51,000 bases of DNA, taken from positions 1 through 51,000 of the IMG/VR virus record IMGVR_UViG_3300020409_000025; one strand, written 5' to 3'. Both the position numbers and the translations under genes were made by a program. The stretch is from a virus. Taxonomy: Duplodnaviria; Caudoviricetes. The notes under the pieces are model-generated. The model worked only from the letters and a program-made list of their open reading frames with translations. It was not told the origin of the DNA and searched no databases. Below, piece after piece: positions 16,368 through 37,268 of this stretch (its first letter is position 1; every line of letters begins with the position of its first letter).

Positions 16368-16612
16368 TCCGTATTTTGAACACGGGCATTTAAACAAGAT
16401 TCAATATAACTATGTATTTCATCAAGTTTAACTGTAGCTTCTCTTATGATAACCCGAAGATTTTCATAGTCTTGTCGGGATAGATATTTTTTAAGTTTCG
16501 CTATATCAACTTTAGTTCTTTCAGTGACAAGGTTTCCACTTTTGTCATACAGCAATCTATAAGCTAAAAGTTGTGCTTCATTTCGTTTCGTTTTCATTGT
16601 TAAATCCTGCAA
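16364..16612 (-). CDS. Hypothetical protein (start probably the internal Met, MKTKRNE)
   Basis: Last ORF of the minus-strand arm; overlaps the nrdB end. Confidence 0.6.
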   Translation of the reverse strand: MQDLTMKTKRNEAQLLAYRLLYDKSGNLVTERTKVDIAKLKKYLSRQDYENLRVIIREATVKLDEIHSYIESCLNARVQNTD

Positions 16613-17570
16613 AGGTTAATTGTCCGTAATCACCTCTGAGTCCAGCTTTCTGATATGAAGTAGCTCTACCTTCAAAAAAGTTTTGATGTTCAACTCCCAA
16701 CACATCGTCTAACCATGTCAGAGGATTATCTTTTTGATTAAAGTTAGGTTTAAGTCCTAACTGTAATAATCTCCTATCGGCAATGTATTTGTTATACGCA
16801 TACATTTCCTCTTTGGTTAGCCCTTCTATATCTCCCATCTCAAATACTAAGTCAAGAAACTTTTCTTCAAGTTTTACCATCTCTCTACATATCTGATAGA
16901 TTTCTTTTTTAAAGTCGTCTGTCCAGATTTCTAGATTTTCTTTGATAAATTCTCTAAATAATTTAGTCATAGCTTCTACATGTAAGCTTTCATCTTTAAT
17001 AGAGTATGCCACAATCTGACACATACCTTTCATCTTACCAAATCTTTGAAAGTTCATTAGTATAGCGAAGCTACTGAATAGCTGTAAGCCTTCCGTAAAG
17101 GCTGAATAAACGGCTAAAGCTTTAGCAATAGTCTTCTTATCAGATTTAATAGTTTTAAGGTCTGTAATGTACGCATGTTTGTCAGACATTTCTTCGTATT
17201 CAGCAAAAGCTTTGTACTCTATCTCAGGCATTCCAACAGTATCTAATAGTAAACTGTAGGCATGTTGATGAATTGCTTCCATATTGCCAAAGGACAGCAT
17301 CATCATTCTAGCTTCTGGAAGTTTGAAAAGTTGCATATACTTTTCTACATAACCCGAAGCAACATCTACATCTGACTGAGTAAACAATCTGAATATCTGA
17401 ACTAAAAGATTCTTTTCTGAATCAGTTAATCTTTCATTCCAATCTTTTACATCAGTATGTAGTGGCACTGACATAGGATGCCAATGCATTCTGTTTTGTA
17501 AATCGTAATACTCAAACATCCAACTGTAGTCGAATGGTTTGTAGTAATCTCTAGTTTTTAATAAGCTCAT
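16578..17570 (-). CDS. nrdB: Ribonucleotide reductase class Ia beta subunit
   Basis: FTQSDVDV, EAIHQHAYS, EGLQLFSSF, DESLH and NFFE motifs. Confidence 0.95.
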   Translation of the reverse strand: MSLLKTRDYYKPFDYSWMFEYYDLQNRMHWHPMSVPLHTDVKDWNERLTDSEKNLLVQIFRLFTQSDVDVASGYVEKYMQLFKLPEARMMMLSFGNMEAIHQHAYSLLLDTVGMPEIEYKAFAEYEEMSDKHAYITDLKTIKSDKKTIAKALAVYSAFTEGLQLFSSFAILMNFQRFGKMKGMCQIVAYSIKDESLHVEAMTKLFREFIKENLEIWTDDFKKEIYQICREMVKLEEKFLDLVFEMGDIEGLTKEEMYAYNKYIADRRLLQLGLKPNFNQKDNPLTWLDDVLGVEHQNFFEGRATSYQKAGLRGDYGQLTFAGFNNENETK

Positions 17571-19460
17571 TTATCCCTCACAAGCAATACATTCCACATC
17601 ATCTAACTTTATTCGTGGAACTTTTATATTAACATTCTCTGCAGCTTTAGCAGCATCAGACCTAAAATAATAAAGTGATTTTAATTTATTCGCACCATAC
17701 CAATGAACATCACTAACGTATTGTAAGTATTCATTATGTTGTTCTTGGTCCTGAGTTGAGTCAGGTAAGATAAAAAATAAATTAACACTTTGACTTTGAC
17801 ATATAAACTCTTGTCGCTTATATGCATGTTCGACAACCCAGATTTGATTTATCTCATCTGCAGTTTTAAATACTTCTTTTTCTTCTTTTGTAAATAACTT
17901 TAACTCTTGTATTGACCCACGATTATCACTAATATCTTGCCAAACTTTCTTACGCTTTTTATGGTCAGTTACTTTTTTGTTAATGAGTTTTTCGAGGTTT
18001 TTGTTTTTGACTTTATAGCTTCCAGATAGCGTTTTGTGAGTGAATACGTTAGCCCTGACGGGTTCGATGGATGGAGAAGTTCCCCCACAAATAATACTGG
18101 AACTAGCATTAGGTGCAACAGCAAGGAGATGACAATTCCTAAGACCAGAATTAGAAATATCAGGAGCTTCCCCCCGTAGTACAGCAAGTCTTCGAGATGC
18201 ATTGACAGCAGCTCCCTTGATGAACTTAAATAATTTATAGTTGATTCCAGTCGAGAAGATTCCCTCAAAGGGAATGTTTTGATTCTGTAAATAAGAATGA
18301 AAACCCATTGCTCCAAGACCAATAGACCTTTCACGATAGGCTGAATAAGCAGCTTTTGTAAAACCTTCTTTGCCTTCTTTAATGTGCTTTTTAAATCTTT
18401 CATAGTTTGCATTGTAACCTCCAAGTGAATTTAAATCGACTGCGTTTTCAATAAAGTGTTCTAGTACATTGTCAAGCATAGTGACTAAATCATCAATAAA
18501 TTTTTCTTCCTTAGACCATTCATCAAAGTGTTCAAGGTTAACACTTGACAAACAACATACTGCAGTTCTTTCGTCATTAGTAGGTAAGGTTATTTCTGAA
18601 CATAAGTTACTTTGTTTTACCTCTAAACCTAAATCTTTTTGTCCTTGTGGTAAAGCATCATTACAATTATCTATATTGACAATGTAAGGCTCTCCAGTTT
18701 CTGCTCTAGCATCTAATAGTTTAGACCAGAGTTCTCTAGCTTTTATAATCTTAACAGCTTCATTTGTTTTCGGGTCAATCAATCGCCAATCGTCATCTTC
18801 TTCTACAGCTTTTAAGAACGCATTAGTTATATTAACTCCATTATGTAAGTTCAAACATTTTCTATTTACATCACCACCAGATTCTTTTCTCATTACCATG
18901 AACTCTTCAATCTCCGGATGTGATATATCCATGTAAGCAGCATAACTACCTCGTCTAGTTACCCCTTGATTAAAAGCTAACATTTGCGAGTCTACTACTT
19001 TCATAAATGGTATTGAGCCAGTAGATTTACTACCATTACTTGTAGGTATACCATCACTTCTAACATCGCCCCAATAACCACCAATACCACCACCAGAACT
19101 TGCTAACCAAATGTTTTCATCATAGTGGCTAGATAAACCTTCACGATTATCAGGAACATAATTAAGAAAACAACTGATAGGTAATCCTCTAGTTGTACCA
19201 CCATTAGAAAGAATAGGGGTAGAAAACATAAACCAAAGATTAGAAACATAGTTATAAATTCTTTGAGCCATGTCAAAGTCGGTTTCTTCTTTAAATGTAG
19301 AAACAAATACTGAAGCTCTAGCAAAAGCTTCTTGTGGCGAGGTTTCACTTTGCCATAAGTATCTATCTTGAAGAGTATCTAAACTAAACTTGTCTAGTTT
19401 TTTATCTCTGTCATAGTTTATAATTATTCCTAAATAAGGATGTTCACCCTTTTTTTCCAT
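17571..19460 (-). CDS. nrdA: Ribonucleotide reductase class Ia alpha subunit (no ATP cone)
   Basis: STPILSNGG, PISCF, SNLCSEI, VCCLSSVN, APNASSS, SLYY and C-terminal CIAC motifs. Confidence 0.95.
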   Translation of the reverse strand: MEKKGEHPYLGIIINYDRDKKLDKFSLDTLQDRYLWQSETSPQEAFARASVFVSTFKEETDFDMAQRIYNYVSNLWFMFSTPILSNGGTTRGLPISCFLNYVPDNREGLSSHYDENIWLASSGGGIGGYWGDVRSDGIPTSNGSKSTGSIPFMKVVDSQMLAFNQGVTRRGSYAAYMDISHPEIEEFMVMRKESGGDVNRKCLNLHNGVNITNAFLKAVEEDDDWRLIDPKTNEAVKIIKARELWSKLLDARAETGEPYIVNIDNCNDALPQGQKDLGLEVKQSNLCSEITLPTNDERTAVCCLSSVNLEHFDEWSKEEKFIDDLVTMLDNVLEHFIENAVDLNSLGGYNANYERFKKHIKEGKEGFTKAAYSAYRERSIGLGAMGFHSYLQNQNIPFEGIFSTGINYKLFKFIKGAAVNASRRLAVLRGEAPDISNSGLRNCHLLAVAPNASSSIICGGTSPSIEPVRANVFTHKTLSGSYKVKNKNLEKLINKKVTDHKKRKKVWQDISDNRGSIQELKLFTKEEKEVFKTADEINQIWVVEHAYKRQEFICQSQSVNLFFILPDSTQDQEQHNEYLQYVSDVHWYGANKLKSLYYFRSDAAKAAENVNIKVPRIKLDDVECIACEG

Positions 19461-24760: not shown

Positions 24761-24808
24761 TAGCTAGACTAGGAACAAATAGAGGTCCTTAAAAACCTAG
24801 TCTAGCTA
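24761..24808 (-). ncRNA. Perfect 13-bp hairpin with 22-nt anti-SD loop upstream of primase
   Basis: TAGCTAGACTAGG/CCTAGTCTAGCTA stem; transcript loop UUUUUAAGGACCUCUAUUUGUU. Confidence 0.5.
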
Positions 24809-25089: not shown

Positions 25090-25505
25090 TAGAATTCCTC
25101 GCCATCAGCTAATAGTTCAGCACCATCAGCGTTCTTATATTCAACAAGGTCTACAACTTGTACAGCTTGTAAGTCAAGTCCTATATAAGGACCAAATTTA
25201 CCCTCACCACTATACTCATTGTATTGAACTCTAACCTTAGAGCCATTACCAACAGCAACATTTATTTCTTGCTTGTCTTTATCTAAAAGTCTAGGTGCAG
25301 GTCTGGTTATTCCATTAGGACCATGAACCTTTCTTTTGATAACTAAAGCAGGACCTTCATCATGCTGTTTTACTTTATGACCCCTTGAAGCAAAGTCATT
25401 CGCAATCTTTTCATCAACAATTAAGTCGATAGTATAGACTGGCTCAAACTTTGTGTTTGGAGTCGTTATACTTGCCCATTTTACTGAGCCTTCTAATATA
25501 GCCAT
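25089..25505 (-). CDS. Single-stranded DNA-binding protein (T7 gp2.5-like)
   Basis: VGNGSKVRV and LQAVQVVDLVEY motifs, acidic C-terminus ending in Phe, strong GGAGGT SD. Confidence 0.8.
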   Translation of the reverse strand: MAILEGSVKWASITTPNTKFEPVYTIDLIVDEKIANDFASRGHKVKQHDEGPALVIKRKVHGPNGITRPAPRLLDKDKQEINVAVGNGSKVRVQYNEYSGEGKFGPYIGLDLQAVQVVDLVEYKNADGAELLADGEEF

Positions 25506-31810: not shown

Positions 31811-32230
31811 TTAACTGTTATACCATAAGTCAAAAGCCTCTACAGTTTCGACAATATTTTCATCACCATTTGAAAGAGCTTCAAAGATACTCTTCAAAAG
31901 ATTACCATGATAAAGACTATATTTAGTCTGCTCTTCATTACTCCATTCAATGAAAGGTTTCATTACATCATCAATGTAATAACCATTAGTCTGTAAGATA
32001 CCATTCCCCATGTAAGTAATCCCATAACCATTTACATACCTACGAAAATCATAAACATCTTCATCGTCTTTATGTAAGTCGATTATTGTTTTCATGTGGA
32101 TTGCTACCTTAATTAAATCATCAATCAAACTACACATATCTATGTGTCCTTGATTATCAGGATTTTTCTCATTAAACTTTTTTCTTCTATTATAAAGGTC
32201 AGTCTTTTCTACAGTTGCAAGTGTTTCCAA
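31811..32230 (-). CDS. Hypothetical protein
   Basis: TTG start with GGAGGT SD. Confidence 0.65.
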   Translation of the reverse strand: METLATVEKTDLYNRRKKFNEKNPDNQGHIDMCSLIDDLIKVAIHMKTIIDLHKDDEDVYDFRRYVNGYGITYMGNGILQTNGYYIDDVMKPFIEWSNEEQTKYSLYHGNLLKSIFEALSNGDENIVETVEAFDLWYNS

Positions 32231-32231
32231 T

Positions 32232-32462
32232 TTATACCTCCTTCTTTATCATTGGTTCTGCTTTTAACGATACAGCTTTACCACCACATTCTTTTTCCAT
32301 TATATGCCCAAGCGTATTAATGGTTAAAGATATTGCGAGTGAAGCTATAAAGTAATGTTCACTACCTGCATAGTCTTTCATAAAGGTATGTAGTTCCTCT
32401 ATGCTATCAAAAGCAGTGAACATATTAGTCTGTTGTATTTGTAAAGGCTTAGGTTTAGCCAT
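32232..32462 (-). CDS. Hypothetical protein
   Basis: First gene after early promoter P3. Confidence 0.65.
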   Translation of the reverse strand: MAKPKPLQIQQTNMFTAFDSIEELHTFMKDYAGSEHYFIASLAISLTINTLGHIMEKECGGKAVSLKAEPMIKKEV

Positions 32463-32507
32463 AGTTTTATCTCCATTTAGTTTATATTTCTCTTTCGAGG
32501 TGGCACT

Positions 32508-32550
32508 ACTTTAGCCGAACCACCTCCAAAAAGCAATATGTGTAAGACTA
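32508..32550 (-). promoter_or_regulatory. Early promoter P3 with upstream TAGTCTTACAC box
   Basis: TTGCTT-17-TAAAGT; the 11-bp box ends 3 nt upstream of the -35. Confidence 0.7.
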
Positions 32551-32558
32551 CTATAAGC

Positions 32559-32964
32559 GATAGCTAGTAAGGGTAGGAGAGTTATATGAAAAAAATGCCC
32601 TCACTAGCTATCTAAATTTATCGGCTCTAATAATTAACAGTTTAGATTTAAAGCAATCCCGTGAATTAATTGCTACCGATTATATAAATAATTTATGACC
32701 ACTTCCTGTCGGTTAATCCTAAATCGGTGTGGCTGTTTCAAGAACACATTAATAACTGTCACTCTGAAATTATTTATAAATTTTGTCGGTGGTCAGCTAA
32801 TCTAAGTTCAAGATTTACGAGTATATAAATACACTCTACTCCCAGTTTCTATTAGCATTAGCCAACCACCTGTGGTTAGTATCCCCGAATTTAATCTAGG
32901 CTTTATAACTAACCACTTTAAATGTCTGACTTCTGATATAAGTATTAACACCCAGACATTTAAA
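32559..32964 (-). ncRNA. Array of six abutting RNA hairpins (candidate small-RNA cluster)
   Basis: Inverted repeats at 32559-32612, 32620-32680, 32683-32778, 32788-32870, 32872-32916 and 32917-32964. G-U pairs in the 32788-32870 stem favour the minus strand. No ORF. Confidence 0.6.
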
Positions 32965-33385
32965 CATTCAATATTTCTATTTCTTCTTCGAACTCCTTTG
33001 AAACCTTATCTATAATCTTCGATAATGTATTGCATTCTCTATCAAGATAGTCATAAAGTTTTTCAATTCCAGTATTACATTCTGTCCATCTCAAAGCTCC
33101 AATATGAACAAGATATTCTTGCTTTACCCAGTCATCATGTTCTTCGCTGTAATACACATTCCATTGGTCTTCAGTAGAGTCTTTATCTACTTCCAAGATA
33201 TGAATATCAGAGTAGTCAAGATTATTAACTCCGATATATTCATCATCATCTTTTAGATTACAACACTTAGTTAAATCTCTAGTGGGTTTAACCTCGACAT
33301 GCCCTTCAATCTCTATCATGTAGCAATAGTTTTTATTGGACTTCAAGATAGCTTCAAGCAATCTGTATATATATGGTTTTATCAT
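32960..33385 (-). CDS. Hypothetical acidic protein
   Basis: GAGGAGGTG SD. Confidence 0.65.
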   Translation of the reverse strand: MIKPYIYRLLEAILKSNKNYCYMIEIEGHVEVKPTRDLTKCCNLKDDDEYIGVNNLDYSDIHILEVDKDSTEDQWNVYYSEEHDDWVKQEYLVHIGALRWTECNTGIEKLYDYLDRECNTLSKIIDKVSKEFEEEIEILNV

Positions 33386-34515: not shown

Positions 34516-34866
34516 AGCAGTTTTAAATCATGCTCAGGATTTGTTATAATCTATTAACTCCCTCCAATATTAACAGCGAGTTTCTCTCTGTGTTTTTTTA
34601 TCTTTAAAGGATGATTATAACTCTCCTCCAACACCTTTAAAGATATCAGAGCAGTTTTAAATCATGCTCAGGATTTATATTCTCTCGAGATAAGAGAAAT
34701 TAAATCTGCACCTATCCAGAGTAATTAAACTCTGAATAGGATTTAGGGGGAGTGCCTTTATTTTTTTAAGTGCTTCTCGGACATATACTTGCACTATGAA
34801 CGATTGATACTTTTAGTTTCCCAGCAATTTGTATCATGCTTTTTTAATTCTTTGTTCCCCGACTGC
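34516..34866 (-). ncRNA. Structured non-coding leader with two identical 27-nt pseudoknot modules and SD-like loops
   Basis: Lies directly downstream of promoter P2. AGCAGTTTTAAATCATGCTCAGGATTT is repeated exactly at 34516-34542 and 34650-34676, with several hairpins around it. Confidence 0.6.
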
Positions 34867-34872
34867 CCCAAT

Positions 34873-34915
34873 ATAGTACCCCAAGTCGCCCAAAAACGCA
34901 ATAGGTGTAAGACTA
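34873..34915 (-). promoter_or_regulatory. Early promoter P2 with upstream TAGTCTTACAC box
   Basis: TTGCGT-17-TACTAT. Confidence 0.7.
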
Positions 34916-34924
34916 ATATGGACT

Positions 34925-35203
34925 CTATAACATGGTGACTTCATATTTATACCCCATATCCATTGAATTAGGGCTATCAAATTTATAAACAGTTTTCAAT
35001 AAAGCAAACTTATTCCTGTTGCCATATATAACATGCTTCTCATAATTAAAATTTTGAGCCGATTTAAAATTAAATCCCAAGCTATCTAAATACTCTTTAG
35101 CCTTTTCAATATTGCTAAAAGTTTTAACAGATAACTCTAAACTTTTTTTATAATCTGCTGCTAGTTTTTTATTAGCCCTTTTTTGTTCTGCCGATAGTTT
35201 CAT
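34925..35203 (-). CDS. Hypothetical early protein
   Basis: AGGAG SD; ATGA-coupled to the upstream ORF. Confidence 0.65.
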   Translation of the reverse strand: MKLSAEQKRANKKLAADYKKSLELSVKTFSNIEKAKEYLDSLGFNFKSAQNFNYEKHVIYGNRNKFALLKTVYKFDSPNSMDMGYKYEVTML

Positions 35204-35389: not shown

Positions 35390-35433
35390 ACTTTAGCCCG
35401 ATTTCGCCCAAAAAGTCAAGAGGTGTAAGACTA
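35390..35433 (-). promoter_or_regulatory. Early promoter P1 with upstream TAGTCTTACAC box
   Basis: TTGACT-18-TAAAGT. Confidence 0.7.
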
Positions 35434-35527
35434 TAATAGCCCCCTCAACTTTACGCACACGCGATAAGTCGGCAAGATTTAAGTATTAGACTATAATTTT
35501 TCTAAAAAGTTCTGGGATTTATTAAGA

Positions 35528-35582
35528 TTTCACATAAAGTTCACAAAGATTTCACATAATATTTGCAAAGATTTAACAAAAG
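35528..35582 (+). repeat. Five 11-bp phased repeats (TTTCACA-type)
   Basis: Units start at 35528, 35539, 35550, 35561 and 35572; the last two are degenerate. Confidence 0.7.
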
Positions 35583-35922
35583 GTACAGTAATTTTAGTAT
35601 GTACCTTTATAATTTATGTACCTTTTAAGACTATTATGTGTACCTTCTACACTCTTTGCCCTCAACTTTACGCAGACGGGGGGCGTTCTAGTATAGTAAT
35701 AAGTAGGTTTATATATCATCTTTGTGAGTAGAAAACAGACAAACTAAACAAGACTTTTTAAAAACCCTACGGGTTGTGTGTTTTATGCTTTGCTAGGGGC
35801 AAAGATTAACAAAGCTTTAGAAAAGCTTTACCAAAAGTGAGGGGTGCTAAAGCACTCTTGAAGTTTTGCCTCACACAAGGTTCGGCAGGTTATTAACAGT
35901 GGAGTAGGGTTTTTAAAAAAAA

Positions 35923-35977
35923 TTTCACATGTTTGTCACATAAATGTCACAAAGATGTCACAATATTGACACAAAAT
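35923..35977 (+). repeat. Five 11-bp phased repeats (TGTCACA-type, Pho-box-like)
   Basis: TTTCACATGTT TGTCACATAAA TGTCACAAAGA TGTCACAATAT TGACACAAAAT. Confidence 0.75.
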
Positions 35978-37092: not shown

Positions 37093-37268
37093 TAGACATG
37101 GGTGGACTCTTTTAGCACTTCAAAGTTAATGAAATGCGAGTAGGAACTTTGAAGTGCTAAAATGGGGTGGTCACATTTTACTAGAACTTGTTAGTTTATA
37201 TAGTGTTGGGAAGGACTCCCAAGTTCTAGGGGGAGGCAGGAGACCACCCCAGTCCACCCATGTATCTA
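37093..37268. other. Y-shaped three-way-junction palindromic element
   Basis: Perfect nested stems of 13, 18, 9 and 10 bp. Confidence 0.7.

What the first reader, a model, noticed from the sequence alone, without database searches (positions are those of the whole stretch)
32559..32612. Hairpin loop is the antisense of a ribosome-binding site plus start codon (GGAGAGTTAT-ATG-AAA-AAA)
Seen: the plus-strand loop reads AGGAGAGTTATATGAAAAAAAT, an SD, spacer and Met-Lys-Lys start, but no real plus-strand gene follows. The region is transcribed on the minus strand, so the RNA displays UUUUUUUCAUAUAACUCUCC on a ~15-bp stem. I found no phage gene with this exact start; the starts at 35203 and 34489 are only partly similar. 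Known: MKK starts are typical of signal-peptide proteins. Inference: an antisense RNA that blocks translation of a host exported or outer-membrane protein (for example the receptor, giving superinfection exclusion) or of a defence gene.
Basis: partly seen in the sequence, partly recalled or inferred. Interest (0 to 1): 0.8.

Follow-up and report, generated by a model that had tools for sequence, protein, structure and literature searches.

The report
Phage early-operon punctuation hairpin
A conserved RNA stem-loop between early genes of an uncultured marine phage marks a boundary where gene modules are swapped; its loop reads like a backwards ribosome-binding site, but nothing ties it to a host gene.

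Summary
The hairpin at 32559-32612 is real: a 15-bp stem and 24-nt loop, z = -4.1 on the minus strand. It is single-copy in the window and conserved in 61 held loci, counting the window. It folds on the sense RNA of the early operon. Every wobble is G.U on that strand, and 52 of 52 contexts place it on the coding strand.

It is an island of identity between shuffled flanks. It carries stops in all three frames in 72 of 72 instances. A promoter-like module or a ribosome-binding site follows it. Its design matches the hairpin upstream of the primase gene, which in more distant relatives is a canonical intrinsic terminator.

My best reading is a PeSL-like punctuation cassette that acts as attenuator or RNA-end barrier and as recombination linker.

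The loop motif is also under constraint. It recurs on an unrelated stem. In many relatives it is complementary to SD-like boxes in the phage itself, so a cis or phage-internal pairing role is plausible.

The host-target idea is unsupported. The 19-mer is a generic start site, found at 104 real gene starts among 120 listed genome hits.

The parts
32559..32612 (-). The stem-loop itself. On the sense RNA the 5' arm is 32612-32598, the loop 32597-32574 and the 3' arm 32573-32559.
   Evidence: Covariation and G.U-only wobbles on this strand. Covariance model score 94.3 bits on the minus strand against 27.3 on the plus strand.
32553..32618 (-). Conserved island: the hairpin plus about 3-6 nt on each side. 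Homology with relatives starts and stops here.
   Evidence: Alignments. The flanks beyond it belong to several unrelated modules.
32574..32597 (-). The loop: a U run, a CAU, a variable A/U spacer, then a five-base pyrimidine block complementary to an SD core.
   Evidence: One search lists the invariant and variable columns. Nearly the same loop sits on an unrelated stem in relatives.
32586..32615 (+). Antisense 9-codon mini-ORF behind the SD-like block. Judged non-functional.
   Evidence: In relatives the frame and length change with indels in the A run, giving 6 to 12 codons. It is always antisense to the flanking genes.
32508..32554 (-). Promoter-like module directly 3' of the hairpin. It has a conserved 15-nt upstream element (32540-32554), a -35-like hexamer (32531-32536), a 17-nt spacer and a -10-like hexamer (32508-32513).
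   Evidence: The module recurs at 34873-34919 and 35390-35436. Only the third copy reached the promoter scan's threshold, so this is inference.
32484..32539 (-). Inverted repeat inside the promoter-like module that spans its -10 region.
   Evidence: pair I1: 20 nt, 85% complementary.
32232..32462 (-). Downstream early ORF of 76 aa, with its SD a few nt upstream. No family match.
32960..33385 (-). Upstream early ORF of 141 aa. No family match. It was used to fetch relatives.
34599..34645 (-). Second hairpin with a 12-bp stem and 23-nt loop. On the same RNA strand its loop is complementary to the first loop over 12 nt. It overlaps a promoter-like site at 34641-34614.
24761..24808 (-). Sister hairpin just upstream of the primase/helicase SD, with a 13-bp stem rich in CTAG and a 22-nt U-rich loop.

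Best explanation
This is a cis-acting stem-loop on the sense RNA of the phage's early operon. It works as a 'punctuation' cassette at a boundary between gene modules.

The stem, rich in CTAG, closes all three reading frames and forms a very stable helix. Directly behind it comes an early promoter-like module (as in the window) or the next gene's ribosome-binding site.

The most likely function is to insulate neighbouring early modules. It would attenuate or pause read-through transcription, or act as a barrier that defines and protects RNA ends. At the DNA level, its roughly 60 nt of near-identical sequence would be the homology patch at which relatives exchange early-gene modules.

What is shown: the structure, the strand, the conservation, the single copy, the three-frame stops, the shuffled flanks, and the design shared with a hairpin that sits where relatives carry a terminator.

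What is inferred: attenuation or barrier activity, promoter activity of the downstream module, and recombination at the hairpin as a mechanism.

The antisense-RBS look comes from a conserved loop motif (U run plus anti-SD pyrimidine block). Its own role is not settled (see rival 1).
For: Structure and strand:
- z = -4.09 on the minus strand.
- In 18 distinct variants, 97.4% of stem cells pair. Two pairs carry double (compensatory) changes. Wobbles at four positions are all G.U on the sense strand.
- 52 of 52 distinct contexts have the hairpin on the coding strand.

Copy number and conservation:
- One strong copy in the window and in near-complete relatives.
- All 8 of 8 loci fetched through the neighbouring protein carry it.

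Mosaic flanks:
- At least five downstream module types were found. The counts are A 18, B 15, C 7, D 10, E 2 and one other, in 53 held segments.
- The same upstream 16-mer is joined to A, B and D, or to A and B, or to B and C.

Stops: all three sense frames are closed in 72 of 72 instances.

Link to terminators:
- The model built from this hairpin finds the primase-upstream hairpins. There were 25 hits in 80 loci, all on the sense strand.
- At that position, 30 of 61 distinct upstream sequences hold a compact 8-9-bp stem with a 6-nt loop. In 52 of 61, at least 4 of the next 8 bases are T.

Promoter-like sites behind the hairpin:
- Modules C and D, and the sister hairpin, have a -35 hexamer identical to the consensus with a 17-18-nt spacer.
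- The window's module is repeated three times in the early region.
Against: - The hairpin is not a canonical intrinsic terminator. The loop has 24 nt, only 4 of the 8 bases after the stem are T, and the terminator scan did not call it.
- The window's promoter-like module matches the consensus at only 7 of 12 positions. The promoter scan did not list it.
- An attenuator or linker role does not explain the loop. The CAU-containing block and the pyrimidine block are invariant in 18 variants while the positions between and around them change. It also does not explain why nearly the same loop sits on an unrelated stem.
- No transcript ends, strands or levels could be observed.
Confidence: 0.45

Rival explanations
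1. The loop is the working part. It is an anti-SD, anti-start-site sequence held single-stranded on a stable stem. It pairs with SD-like sequences of the phage's own early RNAs. The pairing could be in cis (a pseudoknot with a box a few nt downstream), loop-to-loop with the hairpin at 34599-34645, or in trans with early gene starts. The result would be tuning of translation or RNA folding. This can coexist with the punctuation role.
For: - 14 of 28 distinct hairpin-plus-downstream combinations have 9-11 contiguous Watson-Crick pairs between the loop and a box 11-30 nt downstream. Duplex energies are -15 to -21 kcal/mol, with z from -2.4 to -4.2 against shuffled loops. All 14 are in modules B, D and E, and none is in A or C.
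- The base next to the pyrimidine block covaries with the box. It is C:G in the window's lineage, G:C in L078 and G.U in L069.
- Swapping loops and boxes between lineages mostly lowers the pairing.
- The loop of the 34599-34645 hairpin is complementary over 11-13 bp in four lineages, with one compensatory change.
- Loop variants at the spacer positions occur in module-C contexts, where no adjacent box exists.
- The same loop motif sits on an unrelated stem.
Against: - The window itself has no adjacent box. Its best downstream pairing is 5 bp at -8.5 kcal/mol.
- Several module-A contigs with 2.5-4.5 kb of upstream sequence lack the second hairpin: L012, L239 and L092.
- L086 has the L069-type loop but no box.
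- The primase-upstream hairpins show no loop-to-SD complementarity beyond composition. The mean z is +0.6 in the 13 with large loops.
- L078's loop pairs as well with a foreign box as with its own.
- Only 3-4 independent lineages are available.
- Inverted copies of one SD-like motif could also be homogenised by recombination rather than selected for pairing.
Confidence: 0.27
2. The hairpin is an RNA processing or stability signal, for example a double-strand-specific or single-strand-specific endonuclease site, or a 3' exonuclease block. It would cut the early polycistronic RNA into units and set their half-lives, as the processing hairpins between early genes of T7-group phages do.
For: It lies between cistrons of an early operon in a phage with T7-type replication genes: primase/helicase, family-A polymerase and a gp2.5-like protein. 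It has a long perfect stem and an A/U-rich single-stranded loop. The role of such hairpins in T7 is recalled, not checked here.
Against: The stem is a single 15-bp helix without the internal loop of T7-type sites (recalled feature). The host and its nucleases are unknown. No read-level RNA data are available.
Confidence: 0.1
3. One reading: the hairpin is, or is released as, a trans-acting antisense RNA whose loop blocks the ribosome-binding site of a specific host mRNA (an exported protein, a receptor or a defence gene).
For: The sense RNA does display the complement of an SD plus start codon plus A-rich codons. The pyrimidine block is invariant.
Against: - The 19-mer is generic. 19 of 35 viral hits to the 18-mer are unrelated contigs. 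A match therefore cannot single out a target or a host.
- The spacer between the two conserved blocks varies in sequence and length (3-5 nt) among relatives. A fixed host target should not allow that.
- A sister hairpin variant lacks the anti-start codon.
- No conserved promoter lies upstream.
Confidence: 0.05
4. The plus-strand reading is the functional one: a real ribosome-binding site and start codon, presented in a loop, drive a mini-ORF on an antisense transcript.
For: Across 18 variants the SD-like block and the ATG are kept, while the spacer between them varies in sequence and length. That is the pattern expected of a true start site.
Against: - The ORF's frame, length (6-12 codons) and product are not conserved.
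- All stem wobbles would be A.C mismatches on this strand.
- The element is antisense to the flanking genes in 52 of 52 contexts.
- No convincing plus-strand promoter was seen.
- The sister hairpin variant in L079 has no ATG behind its SD-like block.
Confidence: 0.04
5. A DNA-level site: the loop motif, which recurs in both orientations in early control regions, is bound by a phage regulator. Alternatively the palindrome extrudes as a cruciform that serves replication or recombination.
For: The same 10-mer occurs exactly three times in the window, against about 0.1 expected from base composition (my estimate). One of those copies overlaps a promoter-like -10 region at 34614-34641. In module D the box lies in the spacer of a promoter-like site.
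Against: The G.U-only asymmetry of the stem points to RNA, not DNA. With one mismatch allowed the motif is only about twice as frequent as in shuffles, and 4 of 100 shuffles reach the observed count. No candidate binding protein was identified.
Confidence: 0.05

Closest known systems
PeSL cassettes (promoter-early stem-loops) of T4-like myoviruses (Arbiol et al. 2010, PMC2839356; Comeau et al. 2014, PMC4122927)
   Same: Both are composite intergenic motifs between small orphan early genes. Each has a stable stem-loop, which can lie upstream of the -35 box. Each has a sigma-70-like early promoter, and then the SD and start of the next gene. The stem-loop is read as a terminator or attenuator of upstream transcription. 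The conserved motif serves as a linker at which unrelated modules are exchanged. (Section 14 and passages of the 2010 paper were read. Only the abstract of the 2014 paper was read.)
   Different: PeSLs are repeated many times per genome. This hairpin is single-copy, and only the promoter-like module behind it is repeated. The phage is not T4-like; it carries T7-type replication genes. PeSL stems are often G-run/C-run, whereas this stem is CTAG-rich and has a 24-nt loop of conserved sequence. Promoter and terminator activity were measured for PeSLs. That reporter data is in a supplementary figure I could not see. Nothing has been measured here.
Canonical intrinsic (Rho-independent) terminators, as found upstream of the primase gene in more distant relatives
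   Same: The position is the same, directly before an SD in the early or replication operon. The stem core is related. The covariance model of this hairpin recognises the large-loop versions at that site.
   Different: The loop has 24 nt instead of 3-8. There is no T run behind the stem. The terminator scan did not call it.
Processing hairpins between early genes of phage T7, and the reported pairing of a processed 3' end with an upstream ribosome-binding site (recalled from the T7 literature; no paper was opened here)
   Same: An intercistronic hairpin in an early polycistronic RNA, and a precedent for an anti-RBS sequence within the same early RNA.
   Different: T7 sites are two-part helices with an internal loop that are cut by RNase III. 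No such anatomy and no cleavage data exist here.
Regulatory RNAs that present C/U-rich anti-SD loops to target ribosome-binding sites (for example staphylococcal RNAIII and RsaE; recalled, not checked)
   Same: A pyrimidine anti-SD block displayed in a hairpin loop.
   Different: Those are separate transcripts with their own promoters and defined targets. This element is embedded in an operon, and its best partners are phage sequences.

Membership tests
PeSL-type promoter/stem-loop cassette | Stable stem-loop in an intergenic spacer between small early orphan genes | tested here: met
PeSL-type promoter/stem-loop cassette | Sigma-70-like early promoter within the same cassette | tested here: inconclusive
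   The window module matches 7 of 12 consensus positions and was not listed by the scan. Its third copy and modules C and D of relatives reach 9 of 12, with a perfect -35 in C and D. This is a consensus match only.
PeSL-type promoter/stem-loop cassette | SD and start codon of the next gene at the 3' end | tested here: met
PeSL-type promoter/stem-loop cassette | Motif repeated many times in the genome's plastic regions | tested here: not met
   One strong copy per genome. The promoter-like module occurs 3 times. One relative lineage has a second hairpin with a different stem.
PeSL-type promoter/stem-loop cassette | Serves as a junction between otherwise unrelated flanking modules | tested here: met
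PeSL-type promoter/stem-loop cassette | Resides in a T4-like myovirus | tested here: not met
   The replication genes are T7-type. The nearest cultured relatives of the primase are podovirus-type pelagiphages at about 47% identity.
Intrinsic terminator | Short loop (3-8 nt) and a T run within 0-2 nt of the stem | tested here: not met
Trans-acting antisense small RNA | Own promoter and terminator that delimit a small transcript | tested here: inconclusive
   No conserved upstream promoter was found. Upstream contexts differ, and some are ORF ends 7-25 nt away. Transcript ends could not be observed.
Trans-acting antisense small RNA | Complementarity to a specific target beyond what chance or generic sequence gives | tested here: not met
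SD-sequestering pseudoknot or kissing element | Loop complementary to an SD-like sequence on the same RNA, with covariation | tested here: inconclusive
   Met in modules B, D and E of relatives, and with the 34599-34645 loop. Not met next to the window's copy or in several other contigs.
Any curated RNA family (Rfam 15) | Score at or above the family's gathering threshold | tested here: not met
   No match in the whole window. The best sub-threshold match at the site scores 19 bits against a threshold of 72, E = 1.5. No tRNA or tmRNA was found.

The most novel reading that the evidence does not exclude
A group of abundant uncultured marine phages carries a small class of early-operon hairpins whose function resides in the loop. 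The loop is a U run plus an anti-Shine-Dalgarno block, in effect a mimic of the 16S rRNA 3' end held on a stable stem of interchangeable sequence. It would pair with SD-like boxes, a partner loop, or the start sites of the phage's own (and possibly host) mRNAs to time early translation. This would be an RNA-only translational control module that travels with the gene cassettes it punctuates.
Probability: 0.25. Interest if true: 0.7.

Novelty: new variant of a known kind. Interest (0 to 1): 0.4.

Why it matters
If the best reading holds, modular shuffling through conserved regulatory linkers, described for T4-like myoviruses, also operates in an unrelated and environmentally common group of marine podovirus-like phages. 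The hairpin could then be used as a landmark to map module boundaries in metagenomic contigs.

If the loop-pairing reading holds, it would add a compact RNA device for controlling early translation. That device could be tested with simple reporters.

There is also a practical lesson. A loop that is 'antisense to an RBS' cannot be used to find a host, because such a sequence matches strong start sites in bacteria of unrelated phyla.

Tried and rejected
- Rfam at gathering thresholds and in E-value mode over 32200-33100, and ARAGORN: nothing.
- blastn of the region against GenBank phages: no match.
- PHROGs and Pfam on the flanking small ORFs: no informative family.
- Public RNA runs. Six runs hold small shares (0.05-0.14) of the stretch, all as assembled contigs. 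Four were laid. One contig of a relative covers the hairpin and skips 32617-32959. Contigs show neither strand, ends nor level, so this says nothing about transcription.
- Exact-match search of the 19-mer in genomes: uninformative, for the reasons given above.
- Loop-to-SD pairing for the primase-upstream hairpins: no signal.
- A formal pseudoknot pair count on an alignment of module B and E sequences was dropped, because MAFFT did not put the boxes in register. The pairing figures come from my own scripts.
- A plus-strand or sense-strand promoter inside the hairpin was checked by eye against the consensus and rejected as poor. The scan lists none there.
- The weak model hits in a distant relative (G005) are not hairpins of this kind.
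- One related-loci run failed because the machine was busy. It was not needed later.
- The distribution of the second, unrelated-stem hairpin in public collections was not surveyed.

Full report
**Observation.** The arms are 32559-32573 and 32598-32612, 15 nt each with one non-Watson-Crick position, around a 24-nt loop. On the plus strand the loop reads as an SD-like block (32576-32581), a 4-nt spacer, an ATG (32586) and an A run. The frame closes after 9 codons, at 32613-32615. The minus-strand RNA folds at -25 kcal/mol, z = -4.09, with 0 of 200 shuffles as good. The plus strand folds less well, z = -2.47, because the odd position is G.U on the minus strand and A.C on the plus strand. The 19-mer has no second copy in the window at up to 3 mismatches.

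**Setting.** The window is a whole 51-kb virus record with about 32% G+C.
- A minus-strand block runs from about 16.3 to 35.3 kb. It holds ribonucleotide reductase, an exonuclease, a family-A DNA polymerase, a T7-type primase/helicase, a gp2.5-like protein and some forty small orphan ORFs.
- Terminase and portal genes lie on the plus strand.
- The primase's closest cultured relatives are pelagiphages of the HTVC103P/104P/115P kind, at about 47% identity. The host itself is not known.
- No phage RNA polymerase was seen among the ORFs I tested.
- The phage's genes use strong SD sequences.
- The hairpin sits in a 497-nt gene-free gap between two orphan early ORFs of 141 and 76 aa.

**Conservation and strand.**
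- All 8 of 8 loci fetched through the 141-aa neighbour carry the hairpin.
- Pattern scans raised this to 61 held loci, counting the window. They comprise 34 distinct contexts and 18 distinct hairpin sequences. The outer ten stem pairs were fixed by my search patterns, so only the inner five pairs and the loop can be judged for variation.
- In the alignment of the 18 variants, 97.4% of stem cells pair. Two pairs show changes on both sides. In L078 three of the five inner pairs have changed, two of them on both sides, and all five still pair. Wobble pairs occur at four positions, and every one is G.U on the sense strand, hence A.C on the other.
- In 52 of 52 distinct segments, the strand on which the loop carries the pyrimidine block is the coding strand of the surrounding ORFs.
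- A covariance model of the element scores 94.3 bits on the minus strand and 27.3 on the plus strand. It finds one strong copy in the window and in near-complete relatives.

**What surrounds it.** The hairpin is an island of about 60 nt. Homology between relatives starts 3-6 nt before the stem and ends about 5 nt after it. Beyond that point at least five unrelated downstream modules occur, counted in 53 held segments, some of them from the same contig:
- A, the window's type (18 segments): a conserved promoter-like module.
- B (15): a short leader that runs straight into an SD and start codon, used by at least five different genes.
- C (7) and D (10): two other promoter-like modules with a -35 hexamer identical to the consensus and a 17-nt spacer.
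- E (2): the most divergent relatives.
- One other (1).

Upstream contexts are equally varied. In some the hairpin begins 7-25 nt after an ORF stop. The same upstream 16-mer is found joined to A, B and D, to A and B, or to B and C. That is the signature of repeated exchange at the hairpin. The stem is rich in CTAG, and the hairpin closes all three sense reading frames in 72 of 72 instances.

The window's module A (32508-32554) recurs at 34873-34919 and 35390-35436. It has its own inverted repeat across the -10 region. Only the third copy reached the promoter scan's threshold, so promoter function is an inference.

**A sister hairpin gives the best functional clue.** Just upstream of the primase SD lies a hairpin of the same design, at 24761-24808. 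It has a 13-bp CTAG-rich stem and a 22-nt loop that begins with a U run.
- The model built from the first hairpin picks up this site in 25 hits among 80 primase loci, all on the sense strand.
- Across 61 distinct upstream sequences from relatives with 77-99% primase identity, the same position always holds a hairpin.
- In 30 of the 61 it is a compact 8-9-bp stem with a 6-nt loop.
- In 52 of the 61, at least 4 of the 8 bases after the predicted hairpin are T. The other nine are mostly cases where the computed fold absorbed the tail.
- That is the anatomy of an intrinsic terminator or attenuator in front of the replication genes. In the window's subgroup the site has grown a long stem and a large loop.
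- One relative (L266) has, at this site, a loop with the same nine-base block as the first hairpin. A run of about nine T follows its stem.

The hairpin under study lacks such a tail, with only 4 T in 8, and the terminator scan did not call it. At most it is an attenuator, a pause signal or an RNA-end barrier.

**The loop is under constraint of its own.**
- Among the 18 variants, the block that contains the CAU and the five-base pyrimidine block never change.
- The U run changes in length and is interrupted in some variants. The spacer between the two blocks changes in sequence and length (3-5 nt). The 3' end of the loop also changes.
- A second hairpin in one lineage (G003 25330-25374; also L080 and L236) has a 10-bp stem of unrelated sequence but nearly the same loop. 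A promoter-like site with a perfect -35 hexamer follows it about 30 nt later.
- Its variant in L079 keeps the U run and the pyrimidine block but has lost the CAU. The complement of a start codon is therefore dispensable. The U run plus anti-SD block is the core.
- The antisense mini-ORF is not conserved in frame, length (6-12 codons) or product.

**What the loop could pair with.**
- In 14 of 28 distinct hairpin-plus-downstream combinations, the loop has 9-11 contiguous Watson-Crick pairs with an SD-like box 11-30 nt downstream. Energies are -15 to -21 kcal/mol, with z from -2.4 to -4.2 against shuffled loops. All 14 are modules B, D or E, and none is A or C.
- The base beside the pyrimidine block covaries with the box: C:G in the window's lineage, G:C in L078 and G.U in L069. 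Swapping loops and boxes between lineages mostly weakens the pairing.
- The window has lost the adjacent box. Its best partner is the loop of another conserved hairpin at 34599-34645, with 12 bp at -18 kcal/mol.
- That partnership holds in four lineages (11-13 bp) with one compensatory change.

Against a strict pairing requirement:
- Three module-A contigs with 2.5-4.5 kb of upstream sequence lack that partner.
- L086 lacks a box.
- L078's loop is not specific for its own box.
- The primase-upstream hairpins show no loop-to-SD signal, with a mean z of +0.6.
- The loop also pairs at -15 to -22 kcal/mol with many of the phage's own gene starts, because it is the complement of a generic start site.

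Of the 120 hits listed, 104 open an ORF of at least 50 aa, 13 open one under 20 aa, and none has the hairpin context. The hits are spread over unrelated phyla, and many of the products look like signal peptides. In viral contigs, 19 of 35 hits to the 18-mer are unrelated sequences. A match therefore cannot identify a target or a host.

**Reading.** The best-supported explanation is a module-boundary cassette on the sense RNA: three-frame stops, a stable stem-loop and, behind it, a promoter-like module or an SD. It would insulate neighbouring early modules and provide the homology patch for their exchange. I put this at 0.45.

The closest described system is the PeSL cassette of T4-like phages. 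I read section 14 and passages of PMC2839356 and the abstract of PMC4122927. Their reporter data are in a supplement I could not see. This element differs in copy number, in phage type, and in having a conserved large loop. I therefore do not file it as a PeSL.

A loop-based pairing role (0.27) can coexist with this reading and is the more novel part. A host-directed antisense RNA (0.05), a functional plus-strand start (0.04), a DNA-level site (0.05) and an RNA processing site (0.10) are less likely.

I found no description of this element in print. The searches for pelagiphage terms, for anti-SD intercistronic stem-loops in phages, and for conserved stem-loops in marine phages returned nothing relevant in their listings. 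This is a limited search.

**Limits.**
- No read-level RNA data were available.
- Promoter calls are consensus matches only.
- The relatives are close, so the independent lineages are few.
- The public distribution of the second hairpin was not surveyed.

Noticed in passing
window 32508-32554, 34873-34919, 35390-35436 (minus strand); partial copy near 35625-35640: A promoter-like module is repeated three to four times in the early region. It has a conserved 15-nt upstream element, a TTG-type -35, a 17-18-nt spacer and a -10-like hexamer. Each copy has an inverted repeat across the -10 region. In relatives it behaves as an insertable cassette between the hairpin and the next SD.
   Followed up: partly
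window 34599-34645 and 34530-34700: A hairpin whose loop is complementary to the studied loop overlaps a good promoter-like site (34641-34614). On both sides of it lies a direct repeat of about 26 nt, at about 34672 and 34535.
   Followed up: partly
window 24761-24808: A large-loop, CTAG-rich hairpin lies directly upstream of the primase/helicase SD. In relatives with 77-80% primase identity, a compact terminator-like hairpin with a T run occupies the same position.
   Followed up: yes
window about 35921-35972 and 35528-35557: Two clusters of 3-5 short direct repeats of a 7-8-nt unit lie in the divergent control region between the early (minus) and late (plus) blocks. They look like operator or iteron arrays.
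   Followed up: no
window 35441-35456 and about 35655-35670: A 15-nt direct repeat stands just upstream of two copies of the conserved promoter-module element.
   Followed up: no
window 37110-37162 and 37181-37229: Two strong hairpins lie side by side upstream of the small-terminase-like ORF. One has an 18-bp perfect stem with a 17-nt loop. The other has a 15-bp stem with a 19-nt loop. They are possible packaging or termination signals.
   Followed up: no
window 32613-32959: The rest of the gap is mosaic. A block of about 115 nt is shared with several relatives. A short motif recurs at the deletion and insertion boundaries. There is a promoter-like site at 32796-32769, and a window-specific 12-bp hairpin at 32917-32964 right after the upstream stop codon.
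   Followed up: partly
L079, L056, L245 and L236 (relatives): A leader of about 25 nt that ends in an SD and start codon is repeated in front of several early genes in these contigs. In L079 one copy matches that contig's hairpin loop over 14 nt without a mismatch.
   Followed up: partly
window 16578-19460: The phage carries both subunits of a class I ribonucleotide reductase at the end of its replication block.
   Followed up: no
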